Source: an uncultured Clostridia bacterium
GTDB taxonomy: Bacteria; Bacillota; Clostridia; TANB77; CAG-508
NCBI GenBank assembly: GCA_934167835.1
Contig: CAKPLZ010000003.1
Location: 11,426-75,425 of the forward strand
DNA length: 64,000 nt
Reading direction: 5' to 3'
In this document: one piece after another, positions 4,612 through 30,061 of the stretch
Numbering within the stretch: position 1 is the first letter of the stretch
How the letters are laid out: every line of letters starts with the position of its first letter
Program-made: the position numbers and the translations under genes
The notes under the pieces: model-generated
Seen by the model: only the letters and a program-made list of their open reading frames with translations
What the model was told of the DNA's origin: nothing
Databases searched by the model: none

Positions 4612-4675
4612 CAACAAAAAAACGCCTACTGGCGTTTAATCCAGCGAAAATTTCCCGAGAGGAAAATTTTCGCCC
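4612..4675 (-). terminator. tandem hairpins downstream of paralog A: 13-bp-stem hairpin GCGAAAATTTTCC..GGAAATTTTCGC, then AAACGCC-agta-GGCGTTT plus T-run
   Basis: Inverted repeats read directly; near-identical copy at 29936-29996 downstream of paralog C. Confidence 0.6.
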
Positions 4676-4741
4676 TATTATTCCTAATTTTATTACCCTA
4701 AAACTACTTCCTGCTATTTTTTTACTGTATCGCCTTCAAGC

Positions 4742-6138
4742 TTACAGATTTACATAAAGTGCGGAGCGACTACCGAAAGCCGGGGCTGCTGTTGGTCGGA
4801 ATGCGGTAGTAACGATAACTAGCTGAAAGGCTGTAGCGGTAATCGCCGACCCCTGTCAACTCGACTATCTGAAGAGTAGGACTCTGTAGTCCATTCCCAA
4901 ACATTGCCTTCTAAGTCATATACATTTTTTGAAACATCCTTATATGAACTCTTGTCTGCGTAATCTAAGCCTGCTGTCTGCCATGGTCCATCACTATAGC
5001 TTCTATTGTGTAAAGCATATCCTGTATTTTTTACATTATAACTTTCAGTATTTACAAACTCTAACACTTGGTCATGGCATGCTCCGAGTATCATACTACT
5101 TTTTACTCCACTTAAATTTTTATTTGCTGAATATGCTTTTTGTTGTCCATACATATAGTACCAATTTACATTGCTTATTCCTGTCTTTGTTCCAGCTATT
5201 ACTTTTACTGCTGTATTTGCATTTTGCGTCATATTGCTTGTTTCATATCTTCCTACCCAAAATCCTTCTGCATTATATATACTTTTTACGATTTCATTGT
5301 ACTCTGTTTGTAATGTTTTTTTGAATTCATTTGCATTTGCATAACTTGGACTATCTCCTGTTACTGTTGCTATGTTTTCTAAATAAGTAGAACTTGCATC
5401 ATAGCTTGTTCCAGTACTTCCTGTTACTACATCTGGCTCCCTTAAACCGCTGTTTGGTGTATATACTTCTGTATATGCTTTCTTATAGTAGTTTTCTCCT
5501 GTCCTTGTTGCATATAATCTTCCTGCCATTTGTTTTGAGTTATGGGTTGTACATGTTGCAGCTCCATTTTTTACAGTTATATTACATTTATCGTTTAGTT
5601 CCTCTTTTGCCTGGCAAATGAACATATCATTTATTTTTGTATGTGAAATTGGTATCCACACAAATTGGTCATATTTTGTTCTTAAGTCTGCTACTGTTTC
5701 TTCGTTACTCCAGTCTATTGCTTTTATTTCTTCTTCTGTCCATGATGTACCATCTTCTTTTTTATCTATTAAGTATATTACTAATCCACCATCTACTGTT
5801 TTTTCTGTTCCTGCACCTGATACTGTAAAGCCTGCTGGGATTACTGCTGTCTCGTATTTTGAAGTTTCAGTTGCTTTTTCTCCTGCTTTTATTTCTGGTA
5901 ATTTTACTTTACCTTCTAAATAGTCTTCTATGATTGAATAAGTTTTATCCCCTATTTTAATTTCAGACCCAGCATTTGCTTCTGCATCTTGAGCTGATTT
6001 CCAGTTTTTTGTGGCGTCTCCTGCTGACTTAAATAGTCCTGTGTTTAGTGCTACGCTTATGCTGACTGCTACTAGTATTAGCATTACAATTATTGTGATT
6101 ATTAACGCTATGAGCGTTATTCCTTTTGTGTTTTTCAT
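4742..6138 (-). pseudogene. prepilin-like N-terminus / FGE (SUMF1, DUF323)-like C-terminal domain protein, paralog A; frame interrupted twice at in-frame CGG (as assembled the ORF stops at 4819)
   Basis: N-terminus KGITLIALIITIIVMLILVAVSISVAL (class III signal / pseudopilin-like); C-terminus GNVWEWTTE...RVDRG then +1 frame GDYRYSLSASYRYYRIPTNSSPGF, +1 again GSRSALYVNL*, matching paralog B ...SFRAALYVSL*. Confidence 0.7.
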
Positions 6139-6455
6139 GAATTAAATCCTCCTTAAATTTTATTTTATATAACCTTTTGTTATATCTATATATTTTTAAA
6201 ATTAACCTAACTGTACTCATGGTGGACATGATTGTCTTACCATATATATTTTGTACATTAGATTAATTCTTAGTCTTTTATATTTTATATATAGTTTATT
6301 TTTTATAAAATTATCGATATATATATATATATATATAGGGCCCCAAGGCTTTCAGCGATTTTCATTGGTTAGTTTCTCCTTTTTTCGTTTCTTTTCGTGC
6401 TTTTGTTTTTTGCTTTTTGTAAAGCTAGTATATATTATTAATATTTTTCTGTCAA
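6139..6455 (-). promoter_or_regulatory. promoter (TTGACA-17-TATACT) plus about 290-nt leader of paralog A, containing a conserved small uORF (MKIAESLGALYIYIYID...) that harbours a (TA)10 tract
   Basis: -35/-10 hexamers read at about 6450-6455/6427-6432; leader blocks conserved with paralog C leader (31354-31652). Confidence 0.45.
6317..6337. repeat. (TA)10 dinucleotide microsatellite inside the leader uORF of paralog A
   Basis: atatatatatatatatatata read directly. Confidence 0.9.
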
Positions 6456-6506: not shown

Positions 6507-8309
6507 TTAATCTGCAAATATTGCAGCAAATTCTTCTCCATCTACTTTTTCTTTTTCTAATAATAAGTTTGCTACTGTGTGAAGTTTATCGCTGTGCATT
6601 GTTAGTATTTCTTTTGCTCTGTTGTATCCGTTGTCTATTATTCTTTTTACTTCTTCATCTATTTTAGCTGAAGTTTCTTCACTGTAGTTTCTTGTTTGTG
6701 TCCAGTCTCTTCCTAGGAATACTTCTTCTTGGCCTGAGCCAAATGTTATTGTTCCTAGAGTATCGCTCATACCATATTTTGTTACCATGTCTCTTGCAAT
6801 TTTCGATGCTCTTTCTATATCGTTGCTTGCTCCTGTTGATATATCATCTAGTACTAAGCTTTCTGCAACTCTTCCCCCAAGTAATCCAACAATTGATTCT
6901 TCCATTTCTACTTTTGACATGAAATTCTTGTCTTCATCTGGTCTATACATTGTGTATCCACCAGCCATTCCACGAGGCACTATTGATATTTGATGAATTG
7001 TATCTTGTGTTGGTAAGTAATGGCTTACTACCGCATGACCTGCTTCATGGAACGCTACTAATTTATTTTCCTTTTCACTTCTTACTCTGCTTCTCTTTTC
7101 AGGTCCCATTGTAACTTTTATCATTGCATCTTCAACATCTTGCATGTTGATTTCTTGCTTGTTTCTTCTTGCAGCTAGCAGTGATGCTTCATTCATTACA
7201 TTTTCTAGGTCTGCTCCTGAAAATCCTGCTGTATTTTTTGCTATTACTTTTAAATCTACATCTTCACCTAATTTTTTCTTTCTACTATGAACCTCTAATA
7301 TCTCTTCTCTTGCTTTTACATCTGGTGCTGATACTACAATTTGTCTATCAAATCTTCCTGGTCTTAATAGTGCTTTATCTAGTACATCTGGTCTGTTTGT
7401 TGCTGCTAGAACTATTACTCCTTCATTTGCTGAGAATCCATCCATTTCAACTAATAATTGGTTTAATGTTTGCTCTCTCTCATCATGTCCTCCTCCTAAA
7501 CCTGCACCTCTTTGGCGACCTACTGCATCTATTTCATCAATGAAAACTATACATGGAGCATTTCTTTTTGCTTGTTCAAATAAGTCTCTAACTCTTGATG
7601 CACCTACACCAACAAACATTTCAACAAAGTCTGAACCACTTATTATGAAAAATGGAACTCCTGCTTCTCCTGCAACTGCCTTTGCTAAAAGTGTTTTACC
7701 TGTTCCTGGGTGACCCACAAGTAATACCCCTTTTGGAATTCTTGCACCCATATCTGTGAATTTCTTTGGTGATTTTAAAAATTCTACAATTTCTTGTAAT
7801 TCTTCTTTTTCTTCATCTACACCTGCCACATCTTTAAAAGTTACTTTTCCTTTTTCATTTGCATTTAATACTCTTGCTCTGCTCTTTCCAAATGTCATTG
7901 TTTTATTGCCTCCGCCTTGGGCACTACTGCTTATTAGGAACCAAAACACAAATAATGCTATTATTATTGCAAATGGTGATAAAAGTCCTAAAACTTTTAT
8001 CCATATTGATTCAGATTTTTCTTCAAATGTAAATCTTTGTGCTGCTATGTCATCATTAATTTCTGTCATGAAATTATCTATACTTGGAATGTTAACTTCC
8101 TTTTCAACTTTATCGTTTTTAATTTTTACATAAGCTCTATTTCCATCTGCCTCTAATTGAATTTTCTCTACTTTTGAATTGTTTATTGCATTTATCAATT
8201 CATCATAGGACATTTTTGTTTCTGAATTTTCTACTATTGCAGATAACAGAATAATGCTTGCAATTCCAATTATTAACCACATTATAATTGTTTTAATACT
8301 ATTTTTCAT
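6507..8309 (-). CDS. ftsH: ATP-dependent zinc metalloprotease FtsH
   Basis: N-terminal TM segments, Walker [12 protein letters not shown], zinc site HEAGHAVV. Confidence 0.95.
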
Positions 8310-23857: not shown

Positions 23858-23980
23858 TTGGGAAAAAACTACATTTTTATTATCTCATAAACACGTATAA
23901 AATTCGCTAAGATTACTTAGCTTCAAAGTAGCTTTCCTAAAACTACTTCGAGATATTTAATTACTGTATCGCCTGCAAGC

Positions 23981-25468
23981 TTACAGCGATACATAAAGTG
24001 CAGCACGGAAAGAAACGTCGTAACGGCTTTCGTTTGCTGAATAGACGTTGTAGCGAGAGTATGCTGCATTGGCCAAGCCAACGTCGTCGTAATTACCGGC
24101 CCTGCAAACTCGAGAGCTTGAAGAACTAGACTCTGTTGTCCATTCCCAGCAATTGCCTGCGAGGTCATATATATTGTTTTTCTTTGTGTATTCTGTTACT
24201 CCTGTTCCTAATAAATAACTACTATTTTCTGGCTTTTCAGTTGATGCTGTTGCATCGGTGAAATTATCTCCATAGTCGGTTGAATATTTACCTGTAAAAT
24301 TAAATTTACTATTATTGTAATTTCCCCAGCTTGTACTATCAAATAATTCTGCTCTGGTTACTGCATTTGTTTCCTCTAACCAGTTTAATGTTCTATCCCA
24401 CACTGCTGAATTTATTAAACTTGCTGTTACATTTGTTTTTCCATTATTCATTGTAGCTGCTTTGGTTATACTATCTGTTTGGTTTATATAGTTATATGGA
24501 TATTTATTGGCTTGGCTTAAAACTGCATCACCAGTTCCTCTTGGATTTGCACTTCCAGCCTCGTATCTTGCTATATAAAATCCTCCATATTTATTTACAC
24601 TGCCCTCGTGTGTGGCAATATCTGAATCAGTATATTGTTGCATCATTTGTTTTGTTATGGTAATAAATTCTTCTACTGTGTTACATTGACCCTCTGTAAT
24701 GGCTTTAGCAGCTTCATCTTCAGTTATATTTTGTTCTTTTGCTTGTTTTTTTATTACTGCTAAATCTATATCTCTCATTGATGTTATATCCTGCGCATAT
24801 AAGCTTTTTACATATAGAGTTTTAGAAGCTTCATCACTAGCTGTTTTTACTGTTACTGTATATTCTCCATTTGTTGTTGGATTAATTATACTTGTATTTG
24901 TTTTTCCGCTTACTGTAATATCATTATTTTCTGAATTTTTTGTTATTAATGTGCCTAGTGGATCTTCAATTTTTATTTCTGTTATTTCTTTTTTTGCTTC
25001 GATTTCAATTTTTATTTTTTGATTTTGTAATACTGGTACCCATACGAATTGGTCACTTGTAGTGTCATCCTGAATTACTACTCCTGTGTTTTTTTCTCCT
25101 GTTACATAACTATATCCTACTGGAATTGGGGCTCCGTGTTCTATTGATTTTATGTTTGTTCCATCTGATGTTACTGCTGTATCTTGGTGGGTTACTTCCA
25201 TGTTGATTTTTATTGTTGACATTGGATTGTTATTATTGTTATTTAAGTAATCTTCTACGCTAGCATACGTTTTATCCCCTATTTTAATTTCAGACCCAAC
25301 ATTTGCTTCTGTTTCTTGAGCTGATTTCCAGTTTTTTGTGGCATCTCCTGCTGACTTAAATAGGCCTGTGTTTAGTGCTACGCTTATGCTGACTGCTACT
25401 AGGATTAACATTACAATTATCGTAATAATCAAGGCGATTAATGTTATTCCTTTGTTTCTATTTTGCAT
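23981..25468 (-). CDS. prepilin-like N-terminus / FGE (SUMF1, DUF323)-like C-terminal domain protein, paralog B (intact, 495 aa)
   Basis: N-terminal 60 aa near-identical to paralogs A and C; complete FGE-like C-terminus GNCWEWTTE..RVCRAGNYDD...SFRAALYVSL; K/E/I-rich variable middle. Confidence 0.8.
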   Translation of the reverse strand: MQNRNKGITLIALIITIIVMLILVAVSISVALNTGLFKSAGDATKNWKSAQETEANVGSEIKIGDKTYASVEDYLNNNNNNPMSTIKINMEVTHQDTAVTSDGTNIKSIEHGAPIPVGYSYVTGEKNTGVVIQDDTTSDQFVWVPVLQNQKIKIEIEAKKEITEIKIEDPLGTLITKNSENNDITVSGKTNTSIINPTTNGEYTVTVKTASDEASKTLYVKSLYAQDITSMRDIDLAVIKKQAKEQNITEDEAAKAITEGQCNTVEEFITITKQMMQQYTDSDIATHEGSVNKYGGFYIARYEAGSANPRGTGDAVLSQANKYPYNYINQTDSITKAATMNNGKTNVTASLINSAVWDRTLNWLEETNAVTRAELFDSTSWGNYNNSKFNFTGKYSTDYGDNFTDATASTEKPENSSYLLGTGVTEYTKKNNIYDLAGNCWEWTTESSSSSSRVCRAGNYDDVGLANAAYSRYNVYSANESRYDVSFRAALYVSL

Positions 25469-29935: not shown

Positions 29936-29996
29936 TTACATGCAACAAAAAACGCCTACTGGCGCCTTTGATTGGCGAAAATTTTCCTCTTGGAAA
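29936..29996 (-). terminator. tandem hairpins downstream of paralog C (GGCGAAAATTTTCC-aagag-GGAAAATTTTCGCC, then AGGCGCC-agta-GGCGTTTTTT), a copy of the element at 4612-4675
   Basis: Direct reading; about 90% identical to the paralog A 3' flank over about 150 nt. Confidence 0.6.
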
Positions 29997-30061
29997 ATTT
30001 TCGCCCTATTACTCCTAATTTTGCTGTCCTAAAACTACTTCCTGCTATTTTTTACTGTATC

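What the first reader, a model, noticed from the sequence alone, without database searches (positions are those of the whole stretch)
6139..6455. Conserved long leaders with a small uORF and a (TA)10 tract upstream of paralogs A and C
Both leaders start about 45 nt after a near-consensus sigma-A promoter, with a strong SD (AAAGGAGAAACTAAC) and a short ORF. The ORFs are MKIAESLGALYIYIYIDNFIKNKLYIKYKRLRINLMYKIYMVRQSCPP in A and MKNAKNFGIRYLYIDYFIKNQLYIRGLKNKQMDKLYMVGFLGPPKIWMDYFLNRT in C. Blocks are conserved at nucleotide level: aaaacaaaagca..aaaaggagaaactaac.aatgaaaa.cgct.aaa, cgataatttta.aaaaa, aaatggacaaactatatatggta, gtccacc. In A, a (TA)10 microsatellite lies inside the uORF coding for YIYIYI. 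Gain or loss of TA units changes the uORF frame and could work as a slipped-strand phase-variation switch. Alternatively the leader is a structured cis-regulatory RNA or a peptide-attenuation device. Paralog B has a different leader, about 200 nt with its own inverted repeats, and shares its divergent region with leuS.
Basis: seen in the sequence. Interest (0 to 1): 0.55.

Follow-up and report, generated by a model that had tools for sequence, protein, structure and literature searches.

The report
TA-repeat switch in a leader peptide
A hypermutable (TA)n tract inside a tiny upstream reading frame most likely decides, by gaining or losing repeat units, whether ribosomes run into a downstream terminator-like hairpin. 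That would switch a pilin-like surface-protein gene on or off in an uncultured gut Clostridia bacterium, by the same logic as the Streptococcus gallolyticus pil1 switch, here found as a whole family with interchangeable dinucleotide repeats.

Summary
All features are on the minus strand. The promoter, strong SD, conserved blocks, (TA)10 tract and the 55-aa uORF of leader C are real. The 48-aa uORF quoted for leader A is not in this sequence: (TA)10 gives a 20-aa ORF, and the 48-aa form needs (TA)9.

The slipped-strand idea holds up computationally.
- (TA)10 is the only microsatellite in the 64 kb.
- Near-clonal strains carry (TA)9 or (TA)10. Related leaders carry 8, 9, 10, 12 or 14 units.
- Homologous leaders in other Clostridia MAGs have (CA)13-17 or (GA)7-11 at the same codon position.
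- In 12 leaders, two post-repeat frames stop within 6-53 nt. The third runs 40-99 codons and ends inside or just after a stable hairpin followed by a T-run. In one locus the third frame is the pilin-like gene itself.
- Peptide sequences differ between subfamilies, and there are no Rfam hits.

This matches the experimentally shown S. gallolyticus pil1/pil3 mechanism, where an SSR in a leader peptide controls ribosome-mediated antitermination. Here it is non-homologous, dinucleotide-based and multi-paralog.

In this window, leader A is in a short frame (predicted low). Leader C has a decayed repeat locked in the long frame. The U-tract in A is weak, so Rho or mRNA stability remain alternatives. 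No expression data exist.

The parts
6427..6455 (-). Promoter of leader A: -35 TTGACA (6455-6450), 17-nt spacer, -10 TATACT (6432-6427)
   Evidence: 11 of 12 consensus positions. The -35/-10 are conserved in all relatives. A/C similarity starts here.
6376..6381 (-). Shine-Dalgarno AAGGAG of the leader ORF, 10 nt before the ATG at 6365
   Evidence: Sequence. Invariant in 13 related leaders.
6303..6365 (-). Leader ORF as it stands with (TA)10: 20 aa, MKIAESLGALYIYIYISIIL*, a short frame. The stop lies 33 nt upstream of the base of hairpin P1.
6317..6337 (-). (TA)10T microsatellite inside the leader ORF: the proposed slipped-strand switch
   Evidence: unique in the window, 0 expected. Length varies between 8 and 14 units in relatives and between 9 and 10 in near-clonal strains.
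6217..6316 (-). Continuation of the long reading frame, open only when the TA count is divisible by 3 (9, 12, ...): DNFIKNKLYIKYKRLRINLMYKIYMVRQSCPP, with stop TGA at 6219-6217 immediately before the 3' arm of P1
   Evidence: The (TA)9 allele was called as a 48-aa gene in L082. Open-frame length P = 0.049 alone; about 2e-7 combined over 11 leaders, which are not all independent.
6198..6270 (-). Hairpin P1, terminator-like. The 5' arm is AGAATTAATCTAATGTAC and the 3' arm is GTACAGTTAGGTTAATTTT, enclosing an inner hairpin at 6220-6242. It ends in TTTT followed by AAAAAT.
   Evidence: 97.6% of cells paired in 10 sequences, with 1 compensatory pair in this helix. Homologous to clear hairpin + T-run terminators in L016, L012 and others.
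6167..6185 (-). Hairpin P2 (ATATAAC-AAAAG-GTTATAT) between P1 and the SD of paralog A; role unknown
   Evidence: conserved, 1 pair with changes on both sides.
6148..6154 (-). SD AAGGAGG of paralog A
   Evidence: Sequence.
4819..6138 (-). Paralog A, the gene presumed to be regulated. It has a prepilin-like N-terminus (sub-threshold PF07963) and an FGE-sulfatase/C-type-lectin-like C-terminus (sub-threshold PF03781). Frame 0 stops at 4819. Skipping one base at AGGGG (4850-4854) extends the frame to 4770.
31623..31651 (-). Promoter of leader C (TTGACA-17-TAGAAT)
31396..31563 (-). Leader ORF C, 55 aa, locked in the long frame. It reads through the whole P1-equivalent hairpin and T-run and stops in the 5' arm of P2.
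31523..31534 (-). Decayed repeat ATATTTATATAT at the position of the SSR. Orthologous leaders in other genomes have (TA)8-14 here.
31410..31482 (-). P1-equivalent hairpin of leader C, followed by a TTTTTT run (31414-31409)
   Evidence: The compensatory U-A to A-U change relative to the other nine sequences is at column 51/115.
30178..31353 (-). Paralog C, the presumed regulated gene. Frame 0 stops at 30178. Skipping one base at AGGGG (30188-30192) extends the frame to the canonical ...GFRPALYVNL* at 30072.

Best explanation
Leader A is a phase-variable transcription attenuator. A sigma-A-type promoter drives a roughly 280-nt leader that begins with a well-initiated mini-ORF (SD plus ATG, 10 codons) running straight into a (TA)n microsatellite.

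Replication slippage changes n by whole units and so rotates the reading frame among three states. In two states the ribosome stops 6-14 nt after the repeat, more than 30 nt before hairpin P1. P1 then folds and most transcripts end or are inactivated, so the pilin-like gene is low or off. In the third state, when n is divisible by 3 (for example 9 or 12), the ribosome translates about 30 more codons and stops at the 3' arm of P1. It occupies the hairpin and lets RNA polymerase read on into the pilin-like gene, which is then on.

In this window, leader A with (TA)10 is in a short, predicted-off state. Leader C has lost the repeat and is fixed in the long, predicted-on frame.

Shown here: the repeat is real, unique and length-polymorphic; the frame geometry; the hairpins; and the family-wide recurrence with other repeat units. 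Inferred: that P1 terminates transcription and that translation of the long frame relieves it. That inference rests on analogy with the experimentally proven S. gallolyticus pil1/pil3 switch.
For: 1. (TA)10 is the only SSR in 64 kb.
2. Length is polymorphic at very short evolutionary distance. The window, L081 and L083 have (TA)10. L082 has (TA)9 with two SNPs in about 4.4 kb of upstream flank (three more lie at the SD/start of paralog A). L080 has a C>A change that lengthens the tract. L085, L088 and L087 have almost identical flanks with 10, 12 and 14 units. L084 and L090 have 8; L086 and L089 have 9.
3. Homologous leaders in other MAG species carry (CA)13-17 or (GA)7-11 at the same position, after a conserved ...(S/T)L(G/E)A(V/L) mini-ORF. 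The repeat unit is interchangeable, so what is kept is mutability, not sequence.
4. In 12 of 12 leaders two frames stop within 6-53 nt and the third is long (40-99 aa). Combined P is about 2e-7 in this AT-rich DNA; the 11 leaders tested are not all independent.
5. In 11 leaders the long-frame stop lies inside or at the 3' edge of a hairpin far more stable than shuffles (z -2.2 to -10.2). In the subfamilies outside winA/L027 the hairpin ends in or is followed by a run of 4-8 T.
6. Long-frame peptides are unrelated between subfamilies, and dN/dS is not clearly below 1. This is as expected if only ribosome position matters.
7. In L010 the same module is fused in frame-dependent fashion to the pilin-like gene itself, a classical SSR on/off switch.
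8. The alleles that lost the repeat (winC; L014/L091) are all fixed in the long frame.
9. An experimentally proven precedent has the same geometry: short-frame stop at least 28 nt before the terminator gives low expression, and a stop within or after it gives high expression (Danne et al. 2014, PMC3894217).
10. No Rfam family matches.
Against: - There are no expression, TSS or 3'-end data.
- In the window's own subfamily, P1 is AT-rich, has a 36-nt interior and is followed by only four U then A's (six U in leader C). It is not a canonical intrinsic terminator and the simple terminator scan did not call it.
- Covariation within the subfamily is thin: 2 pairs with double changes among 10 close sequences.
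- The whole-leader fold of C is no more stable than shuffles (z -0.65).
- From general knowledge, transcription and translation are reported to be loosely coupled in Bacillus subtilis, which would weaken ribosome-mediated antitermination in Firmicutes. The S. gallolyticus case shows it can nevertheless work.
- Paralog A's coding frame is itself interrupted near its 3' end, so this copy may be partly decayed.
- Assembled tract lengths are population consensus; within-population switching was not observed directly.
Confidence: 0.6

Rival explanations
1. The switch is the same but the effector step differs. The SSR sets the leader-ORF frame, and the downstream gene is affected through Rho-dependent polarity, RNase access or mRNA stability, or translational coupling, rather than through an intrinsic terminator.
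For: The U-tract after P1 in leaders A and C-type is weak, with 4-6 U. The simple terminator scan did not call it. Short frames leave about 250 nt of untranslated AT-rich leader RNA. SSR effects acting through 5'-UTR structure and RNase III are documented in H. influenzae hmw (PMC12721329).
Against: Relatives in other subfamilies have strong hairpins with 5-8 T runs at the homologous position. The long-frame stop is positioned on the hairpin in every case, which a pure Rho or stability model does not require.
Confidence: 0.15
2. The long-frame product (about 40-100 aa) is itself a functional small protein whose synthesis is phase-variable. The hairpin is simply its terminator, and the pilin-like gene is expressed independently.
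For: The long frame is kept open. Within the closest subfamily a motif, KLYIKYKR ... LYMVGFLCPP, is shared. A gene caller annotated the 48-aa form.
Against: Long-frame peptides of the CA-type leaders (L015, L068, L008) and GA-type leaders share no sequence with the TA type. pN/pS ranges from 0.24 to 1.8 with no consistent constraint. No strong promoter lies between the hairpin and the pilin-like gene in leader A. In several loci only 20-57 nt separate the hairpin from the pilin-like start codon. In L010 the module is fused directly to the pilin-like gene.
Confidence: 0.1
3. The leader is a neutral relic. It was copied along with the gene during paralog duplication or gene conversion, and the TA tract is an ordinary unstable microsatellite with no regulatory role.
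For: A, C and their N-terminal 67 codons look homogenised, at 80-84% nt identity against 36-48% aa identity for the rest of the protein. SNPs between near-clonal strains cluster in the leader and often match paralog variants, suggesting gene conversion. AT-rich genomes make TA runs easily.
Against: It is the only SSR in 64 kb. Dinucleotide SSRs with three different units sit at the same codon position in at least 12 leaders of several species. The one-long, two-short frame geometry and the stop-on-hairpin placement recur. Similarity ends at the -35.
Confidence: 0.08
4. The leader is a ligand- or protein-binding structured RNA (riboswitch-like or T-box-like), and the uORF and SSR are incidental.
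For: The leader A fold is more stable than shuffles (z -3.0). Hairpins P1 and P2 are conserved.
Against: There are no Rfam hits at gathering or permissive thresholds in the window or in 10 related loci. Sequence and hairpin shape differ completely between subfamilies, while the SD-ATG-SSR and frame geometry are kept. The leader C fold is not significant.
Confidence: 0.03

Closest known systems
Streptococcus gallolyticus pil1/pil3 phase-variable attenuator (Danne et al. 2014, PLoS Pathog, PMC3894217)
   Same: Both have a promoter, then a leader-peptide ORF containing an SSR, then a stem-loop terminator, then a pilus or surface-protein gene. Repeat gain or loss changes where the leader ORF stops. 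A stop well upstream of the hairpin (at least 28 nt there, 33-41 nt here) is the low state, and a stop within or after the hairpin is the high state. The regulated genes encode surface appendage proteins of a host-associated Firmicute, and several loci per genome carry the device.
   Different: There is no sequence homology. The repeat unit is 2 nt (TA, CA or GA, interchangeable between loci) rather than the pentamer GCAGA. Only one frame in three is long here. The regulated genes are prepilin-like (type IV-like N-terminus) proteins with an FGE/C-type-lectin-like variable C-terminus, not sortase pili. A conserved about 10-codon pre-repeat peptide is present. One relative (L010) has the module fused to the structural gene. 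The terminator in the window's subfamily is weak. Nothing has been tested experimentally here.
E. coli pyrE (rph-1) and pyrBI leader-ORF attenuators (own knowledge)
   Same: An upstream ORF that reads into an intrinsic terminator suppresses termination when a ribosome follows RNAP closely. The rph-1 frameshift in K-12 makes translation stop early and lowers pyrE expression, so a frameshift in the upstream ORF changes attenuation.
   Different: Those systems sense UTP through RNAP pausing. The rph-1 frameshift is a fixed laboratory mutation, not a reversible SSR switch.
Classical SSR-in-coding-region phase variation (e.g. Neisseria opa CTCTT repeats, pilC poly-G; own knowledge)
   Same: Slipped-strand mispairing in a repeat near the 5' end toggles the reading frame of surface-protein genes, and multigene families switch independently. 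Relative L010 ((AC)13 inside the pilin-like ORF) and L036 ((TA)8 in a prepilin-peptidase-like gene) are of this type.
   Different: In the window the repeat is in a separate leader ORF. The structural gene has its own SD and ATG about 180 nt downstream, so the effect must be indirect.
Haemophilus influenzae hmw1A 5'-UTR heptamer SSR / RNase III element (PMC12721329)
   Same: A transcribed SSR in the 5' leader of an adhesin gene controls expression post-initiation.
   Different: There the repeats form one arm of an RNA hairpin and expression scales with repeat number. No leader ORF or frame logic is involved. Here the CA and GA units cannot self-pair, and the three-state frame geometry is the conserved feature.
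Clostridioides difficile cwpV invertible leader switch (own knowledge)
   Same: It gives phase variation of a Clostridia surface protein by making or breaking an intrinsic terminator in the 5' leader.
   Different: It uses site-specific DNA inversion by a recombinase, not an SSR or a leader peptide.

Membership tests
SSR-in-leader-peptide transcription attenuator (S. gallolyticus pil1 type) | Promoter followed by a translatable leader ORF (SD + start codon) upstream of the regulated gene | tested here: met
   The promoter matches 11 of 12 positions. SD AAGGAG lies 10 nt before the ATG at 6365. Both are conserved in 13 relatives. Translation itself was not shown.
SSR-in-leader-peptide transcription attenuator (S. 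gallolyticus pil1 type) | Simple sequence repeat inside the leader ORF whose unit length is not a multiple of 3 | tested here: met
   (TA)10 at 6317-6337 starts at codon 11 of the leader ORF. Leader C has lost it.
SSR-in-leader-peptide transcription attenuator (S. gallolyticus pil1 type) | Repeat number varies between strains or cells | tested here: met
   Between strains and samples the counts are 8, 9, 10, 12 and 14 units, and 9 versus 10 in near-clonal strains. Within-population variation was not testable without reads. One sample's assembly breaks in the tract.
SSR-in-leader-peptide transcription attenuator (S. gallolyticus pil1 type) | Alternative frames end either well upstream of, or within or after, a leader hairpin | tested here: met
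   In leader A the short stops lie 33-41 nt before the P1 base, and the long stop TGA (6219-6217) abuts the 3' arm. The same geometry holds in 11 related leaders.
SSR-in-leader-peptide transcription attenuator (S. gallolyticus pil1 type) | The hairpin is a functional intrinsic terminator between the leader ORF and the gene | tested here: inconclusive
   Relatives have strong hairpins with 5-8 T (L016, L012, L015, L008, L068, L002). In leader A the hairpin is AT-rich with only TTTT, and in leader C it has TTTTTT. Neither was called by the simple scan.
SSR-in-leader-peptide transcription attenuator (S. gallolyticus pil1 type) | Downstream transcription depends on translation of the long leader peptide | not testable with these tools
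   This needs reporter fusions with ATG, stop and hairpin mutants, as in PMC3894217.
Known cis-regulatory RNA families (Rfam 15: riboswitches, T-box, leaders) | Match to a covariance model at or near the gathering score | tested here: not met
   There were no hits at gathering threshold in the window or in 10 related loci. Only chance-level hits appeared at E up to 10 in the two leaders.
Type IV pilin / pseudopilin (regulated genes) | Prepilin N-terminal cleavage/methylation motif (PF07963) | tested here: inconclusive
   The hits are sub-threshold at 14.4-17.5 bits against a cut-off of 21.2. The motif KGITLIALIITIIVMLIL lacks the usual Glu5. A prepilin-peptidase-like gene lies next to a paralog in L036.
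Diversity-generating retroelement target (regulated genes) | A template repeat near-identical to the 3' variable region, with differences at adenines, plus a reverse transcriptase | tested here: not met
   Only the three gene-terminal copies exist in the window, and no extra copy exists in 94 loci. The three variable regions differ by indels and at all bases. No RT was found among the 20 window ORFs scanned; the remaining ORFs were not scanned.

The most novel reading that the evidence does not exclude
A portable, family-wide 'dinucleotide-repeat attenuator cassette' governs dozens of prepilin-like surface-protein paralogs in a clade of uncultured, AT-rich gut Clostridia. The cassette consists of a promoter, a conserved 10-codon mini-ORF, an interchangeable TA/CA/GA repeat and a terminator. 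It operates together with a second, conserved recoding layer: a +1 frameshift site, AGG-GGC-C, needed to read the variable lectin-like C-terminus. Leader gene conversion may also contribute. Together these would give combinatorial, Mycoplasma- or Neisseria-style surface variation in commensal Firmicutes, where SSR-based phase variation has barely been described.
Probability: 0.3. Interest if true: 0.78.

Novelty: new variant of a known kind. Interest (0 to 1): 0.6.

Why it matters
SSR-driven phase variation is textbook for Neisseria, Haemophilus, Campylobacter and Mycoplasma. In Gram-positive gut commensals the literature searches here found only one worked example of the leader-peptide/terminator version: S. 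gallolyticus pil1/pil3.

This locus suggests the same logic evolved independently. It is used on a multigene scale by an uncultured Clostridia lineage from human and animal guts, with the repeat unit swapped freely between paralogs.

Three practical consequences follow:
- It gives a sequence-only rule for predicting on/off states of surface proteins from metagenomes: SD-ATG, a short ORF, a dinucleotide repeat, one long frame, and its stop on a hairpin.
- It explains assembly breaks and 'hypervariable' intergenic regions at these loci.
- It flags these prepilin-like, lectin-like proteins as probable targets of host or phage selection.

Tried and rejected
- **Rfam.** Searches of the window, of both leaders at E up to 10, and of 10 related loci found nothing.
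- **Whole-leader folding.** Leader A gave z -3.0, but leader C gave z -0.65, so global structure is not the conserved feature.
- **Simple terminator scan.** It does not call P1 in either leader.
- **dN/dS on the long frame.** Counts are too small and ratios range from 0.24 to 1.8, so the result is inconclusive.
- **Covariation within the close subfamily.** It is weak, with 2 compensatory pairs and 96.5% of cells paired. Cross-subfamily alignment was not attempted formally because the sequences are too divergent. Compensatory A-U to G-C changes between winA and L016 were seen only by eye.
- **DGR idea for the variable 3' ends of the paralogs.** No template repeat was found, and the differences are not adenine-specific.
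- **Pfam/NCBIfam naming of the paralogs.** Only sub-threshold N_methyl and FGE-sulfatase hits were found.
- **Not done.** A protein-database search for the uORF peptides was judged unnecessary once the DNA-level polymorphism was clear.

Full report
**Orientation and anatomy.** Everything in the finding lies on the minus strand. Paralog A is 4819..6138, B is 23981..25468 and C is 30178..31353.
- The three proteins share an almost invariant 67-residue prepilin-like N-terminus and are 36-48% identical overall.
- Pfam gives only sub-threshold N_methyl and FGE-sulfatase hits.
- Leader A runs from a TTGACA-17-TATACT promoter (6455..6427, 11/12) to the paralog A start.
- Leader C runs from TTGACA-17-TAGAAT (31651..31623) to the paralog C start.
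- A/C similarity begins abruptly at the -35, continues through the leader at about 80% column identity, and runs into the first 237 nt of the CDS.

**Checking the observation.** The (TA)10 tract is real: 6317-6337, 10.5 perfect copies.
- It is the only period-2 array and the only SSR of at least 6 dinucleotide units or 9 mononucleotides in 64 kb. Shuffles give none.
- uORF C is exactly as quoted (55 aa, 31563..31396).
- uORF A is not as quoted. With ten TA units the ORF is 20 aa, MKIAESLGALYIYIYISIIL* (6365..6303). The quoted 48-aa peptide corresponds to (TA)9.
- That error turned out to be informative, because it shows the three frames differ sharply.
- Paralog B has an unrelated leader without a uORF or repeat.

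**Related sequences.** A scan of species-representative genomes with the paralog alignment returned 79 loci, all from uncultured Clostridia MAGs of human, rabbit, goat and chicken gut. The window's own species is not among them.
- BLAST and nhmmer found orthologous leaders in 'Clostridium sp. UMGS1740': L027 for A, L014 for C and L007 for B.
- They also found a more distant homologue in L016.
- L027 has (TA)8. L016 has (CA)17 at exactly the same place, before another prepilin-like paralog.

**SSRs across the related loci.** An SSR scan of all 534 kb of loci found dinucleotide arrays of 7-17 units of TA, CA or GA.
- Twelve of the fourteen arrays lie within an SD-ATG mini-ORF immediately upstream of a prepilin-like gene (L002, L005, L008, L010, L012, L015, L016, L027, L032, L043 twice, L068).
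- The other two lie in the 5' end of a prepilin-peptidase-like gene (L036) and just upstream of a PilM-like gene's promoter (L039).
- The ten or so codons before the repeat are conserved, as ...(S/T)L(G/E)A(V/L) at the protein level and CCTTGNGGCTGTA at the nucleotide level. The repeat unit is not conserved.

**Frame geometry.** For 12 leaders I rebuilt the ORF with n-2 to n+2 units.
- In every case two of the three frames stop 6-53 nt after the repeat, and the third is long at 40-99 aa.
- In L010 the third frame is the prepilin-like gene itself: (AC)12 or (AC)15 is in frame, while the assembled (AC)13 is out of frame.
- In this AT-rich DNA such open frames are unlikely. Individual P values range from 0.0005 to 0.58, and the Fisher combined P is about 2e-7. 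The leaders are not all independent.
- The long peptides are unrelated between subfamilies, and pN/pS within the closest subfamily is uninformative at 0.24-1.8.

**Hairpins.** Downstream of the repeat each leader has a hairpin far more stable than shuffles (z -2.2 to -10.2).
- In most leaders the hairpin ends in or is followed by a T-run. Examples are CAACTTTTTGC in L016, CAACTTTTTTGCG in L012 and GCTCTTTTTATGTTTTTTT in L068.
- The stop codon of the long frame falls at the end of the 5' arm, in the loop, or at or in the 3' arm.
- In leader A, P1 spans 6270..6198. The long-frame TGA (6219-6217) abuts the 3' arm, and the short-frame stops lie 33-41 nt upstream of the base.
- In C-type leaders of other genomes the long-frame TAA lies in the last bases of the 3' arm.
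- In the window's leader C that TAA is mutated, and the ORF runs 15 nt past the TTTTTT run into hairpin P2.
- RNAalifold and pair counting on ten subfamily members keep P1, its inner hairpin and P2 paired in 96.5% of cells, with two pairs changed on both sides. This is consistent but thin, because the sequences are close.
- The P1 U-tract in leader A is only TTTT, and the simple terminator scan did not call it. Its terminator status rests on homology with the clearer relatives.

**Polymorphism.** Looking up the exact FtsH protein next to leader A retrieved four contigs of the same species from other samples.
- Over 6.8 kb, L080 and L081 differ from the window at two positions each, and all of these lie inside leader A. 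One (6338 C>A) lengthens the repeat.
- L083 is identical to the window.
- L082 has two SNPs in about 4.4 kb of upstream flank and three more at the SD/start of paralog A (6154, 6141, 6140). It has (TA)9, giving the 48-aa leader ORF, which a gene caller annotated.
- In the L082 sample a second contig (L094) starts inside the TA tract and differs from L082 at about six leader positions, several of which match C-type paralog variants. This suggests within-sample heterogeneity and leader gene conversion.
- A metagenome scan with the pre-repeat sequence found eight more loci. TA counts were 8 (L084, L090), 9 (L086, L089), 10 (L085), 12 (L088) and 14 (L087), plus a decayed TATATATATCTCTC in L091, as in L014.
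- L085, L088 and L087 have virtually identical flanks but 10, 12 and 14 units.
- Alleles that lost the repeat (winC; L014/L091) are all fixed in the long frame.
- Among repeat-bearing alleles, most assembled states are short.

**Interpretation.** The data fit a phase-variable attenuator. Slippage in the repeat rotates the leader-ORF frame. Only in the long frame does a ribosome reach and occupy the hairpin, which prevents termination and allows expression of the prepilin-like gene.
- The polymorphism, the geometry and the recurrence are shown here. The termination and antitermination steps are inferred.
- A literature search found that exactly this mechanism has been demonstrated genetically for S. 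gallolyticus pil1 and pil3. There, GCAGA repeats in a leader peptide and a downstream stem-loop terminator control expression: short peptides ending at least 28 nt before the hairpin give low expression, and long peptides ending within or after it give high expression (Danne et al. 2014, PMC3894217).
- No paper describing the Clostridia family was found.
- The H. influenzae hmw 5'-UTR SSR/RNase III system (PMC12721329) is a different kind of leader SSR control. It is a reminder that RNA processing or Rho could be the effector here, especially given the weak U-tract.
- No Rfam family matches.

**State of this window.** Leader A with (TA)10 is in a short frame, so low expression of paralog A is predicted. 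Leader C is locked long, so read-through is predicted to be constitutive. Paralog B is not under this device.

**Verdict.**
- It works like the S. gallolyticus pil1 switch but is not homologous to it.
- It differs in repeat type, frame logic (one long frame in three), the class of regulated gene and its multigene deployment, so I class it as a new variant of a known kind.
- Confidence in the full mechanism is about 0.6.
- Confidence that the TA tract is a hypermutable frame switch of the leader ORF is about 0.9.

Noticed in passing
window 4850-4854 (paralog A) and 30188-30192 (paralog C), minus strand; also L001, L007, L015, L085, L091: There is a conserved apparent +1 frameshift in the regulated genes. 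At AGG-GGC-CGG, frame 0 stops within 3-15 codons in six of the seven genes (it stays open for 46 codons in L007). Skipping one base gives an open frame that reaches the canonical C-terminus ...GFRxxLYVNL* in six of seven independent genes from several species. Paralog A also has a 2-nt gap and ends at ...GFR*. In-frame relatives (paralog B 'RAGNY', L084, L087, L049 'RGG(D/S/G)(F/Y)') lack the extra base. This suggests programmed +1 ribosomal frameshifting at a rare AGG codon, or a short G-tract switch. Independent assemblies agree, so it is not an assembly error.
   Followed up: partly
window 6338, 6298, 6211 (vs L080/L081); 6154, 6141, 6140 (vs L082); L094:1-235: Between near-clonal strains (2 mismatches in 6803 nt), every SNP falls inside leader A. 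In one sample two leader variants coexist and a contig starts inside the TA tract. Several variant bases match the C-type paralog leader, which suggests gene conversion between paralogous leaders.
   Followed up: partly
window 4640-4860, 23890-24110, 29970-30200 (3' ends and flanks of paralogs A, B, C): A roughly 100-nt hypervariable stretch encodes the last about 35 aa of the lectin-like domain. It is bracketed by conserved sequence and followed by a conserved 3' flank with two hairpins. It looks like a DGR variable region, but no template repeat was found and the differences include indels and are not adenine-specific.
   Followed up: partly
L010:3930-4020: The same SD-ATG-mini-ORF-(AC)13 module sits directly in the 5' coding region of a prepilin-like gene. 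(AC)12 or (AC)15 would be in frame; the assembled state is out of frame. This is a classical translational SSR switch and a likely evolutionary link to the leader version.
   Followed up: yes
L036:4366-4400; L039:932-943: A (TA)8 tract lies in the first codons of a prepilin-peptidase-like gene (in frame as assembled, out of frame at ±1 unit). An (AT)6 tract abuts the -35 of a PilM-like gene. SSRs may therefore also control the pilus machinery in this clade.
   Followed up: partly
L016:6848-6875 and 7056-7085; L008:3688-3760; L068:4950-4975; L005:3380-3410: GC-rich REP-like hairpins (GTAGGGGCGACCATTGGTCGYCC and variants) are inserted in several of the otherwise AT-rich leaders. Rfam has no match.
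   Followed up: no
window 6338-6365 and equivalents in 12 loci: The about 10 codons before the repeat are conserved across subfamilies, as ...(S/T)L(G/E)A(V/L) and nt CCTTGNGGCTGTA. They often form a small GC hairpin right next to the repeat. It is unexplained why this part is kept when the repeat unit and everything downstream change.
   Followed up: no
window 6167-6185 and 31379-31399: A conserved hairpin or palindrome, (T)ATAAC-N3-5-GTTAT(A), lies between P1 and the SD of the paralog. It could be an RNA hairpin or a protein operator. In leader C the leader ORF stops inside it.
   Followed up: no
window 38999-48316 (+): A non-ribosomal peptide synthetase-like cluster is present: a condensation-domain protein of 410 aa, followed by ORFs of 2103 aa and 597 aa. 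This is unusual for a small AT-rich gut Clostridia genome.
   Followed up: no
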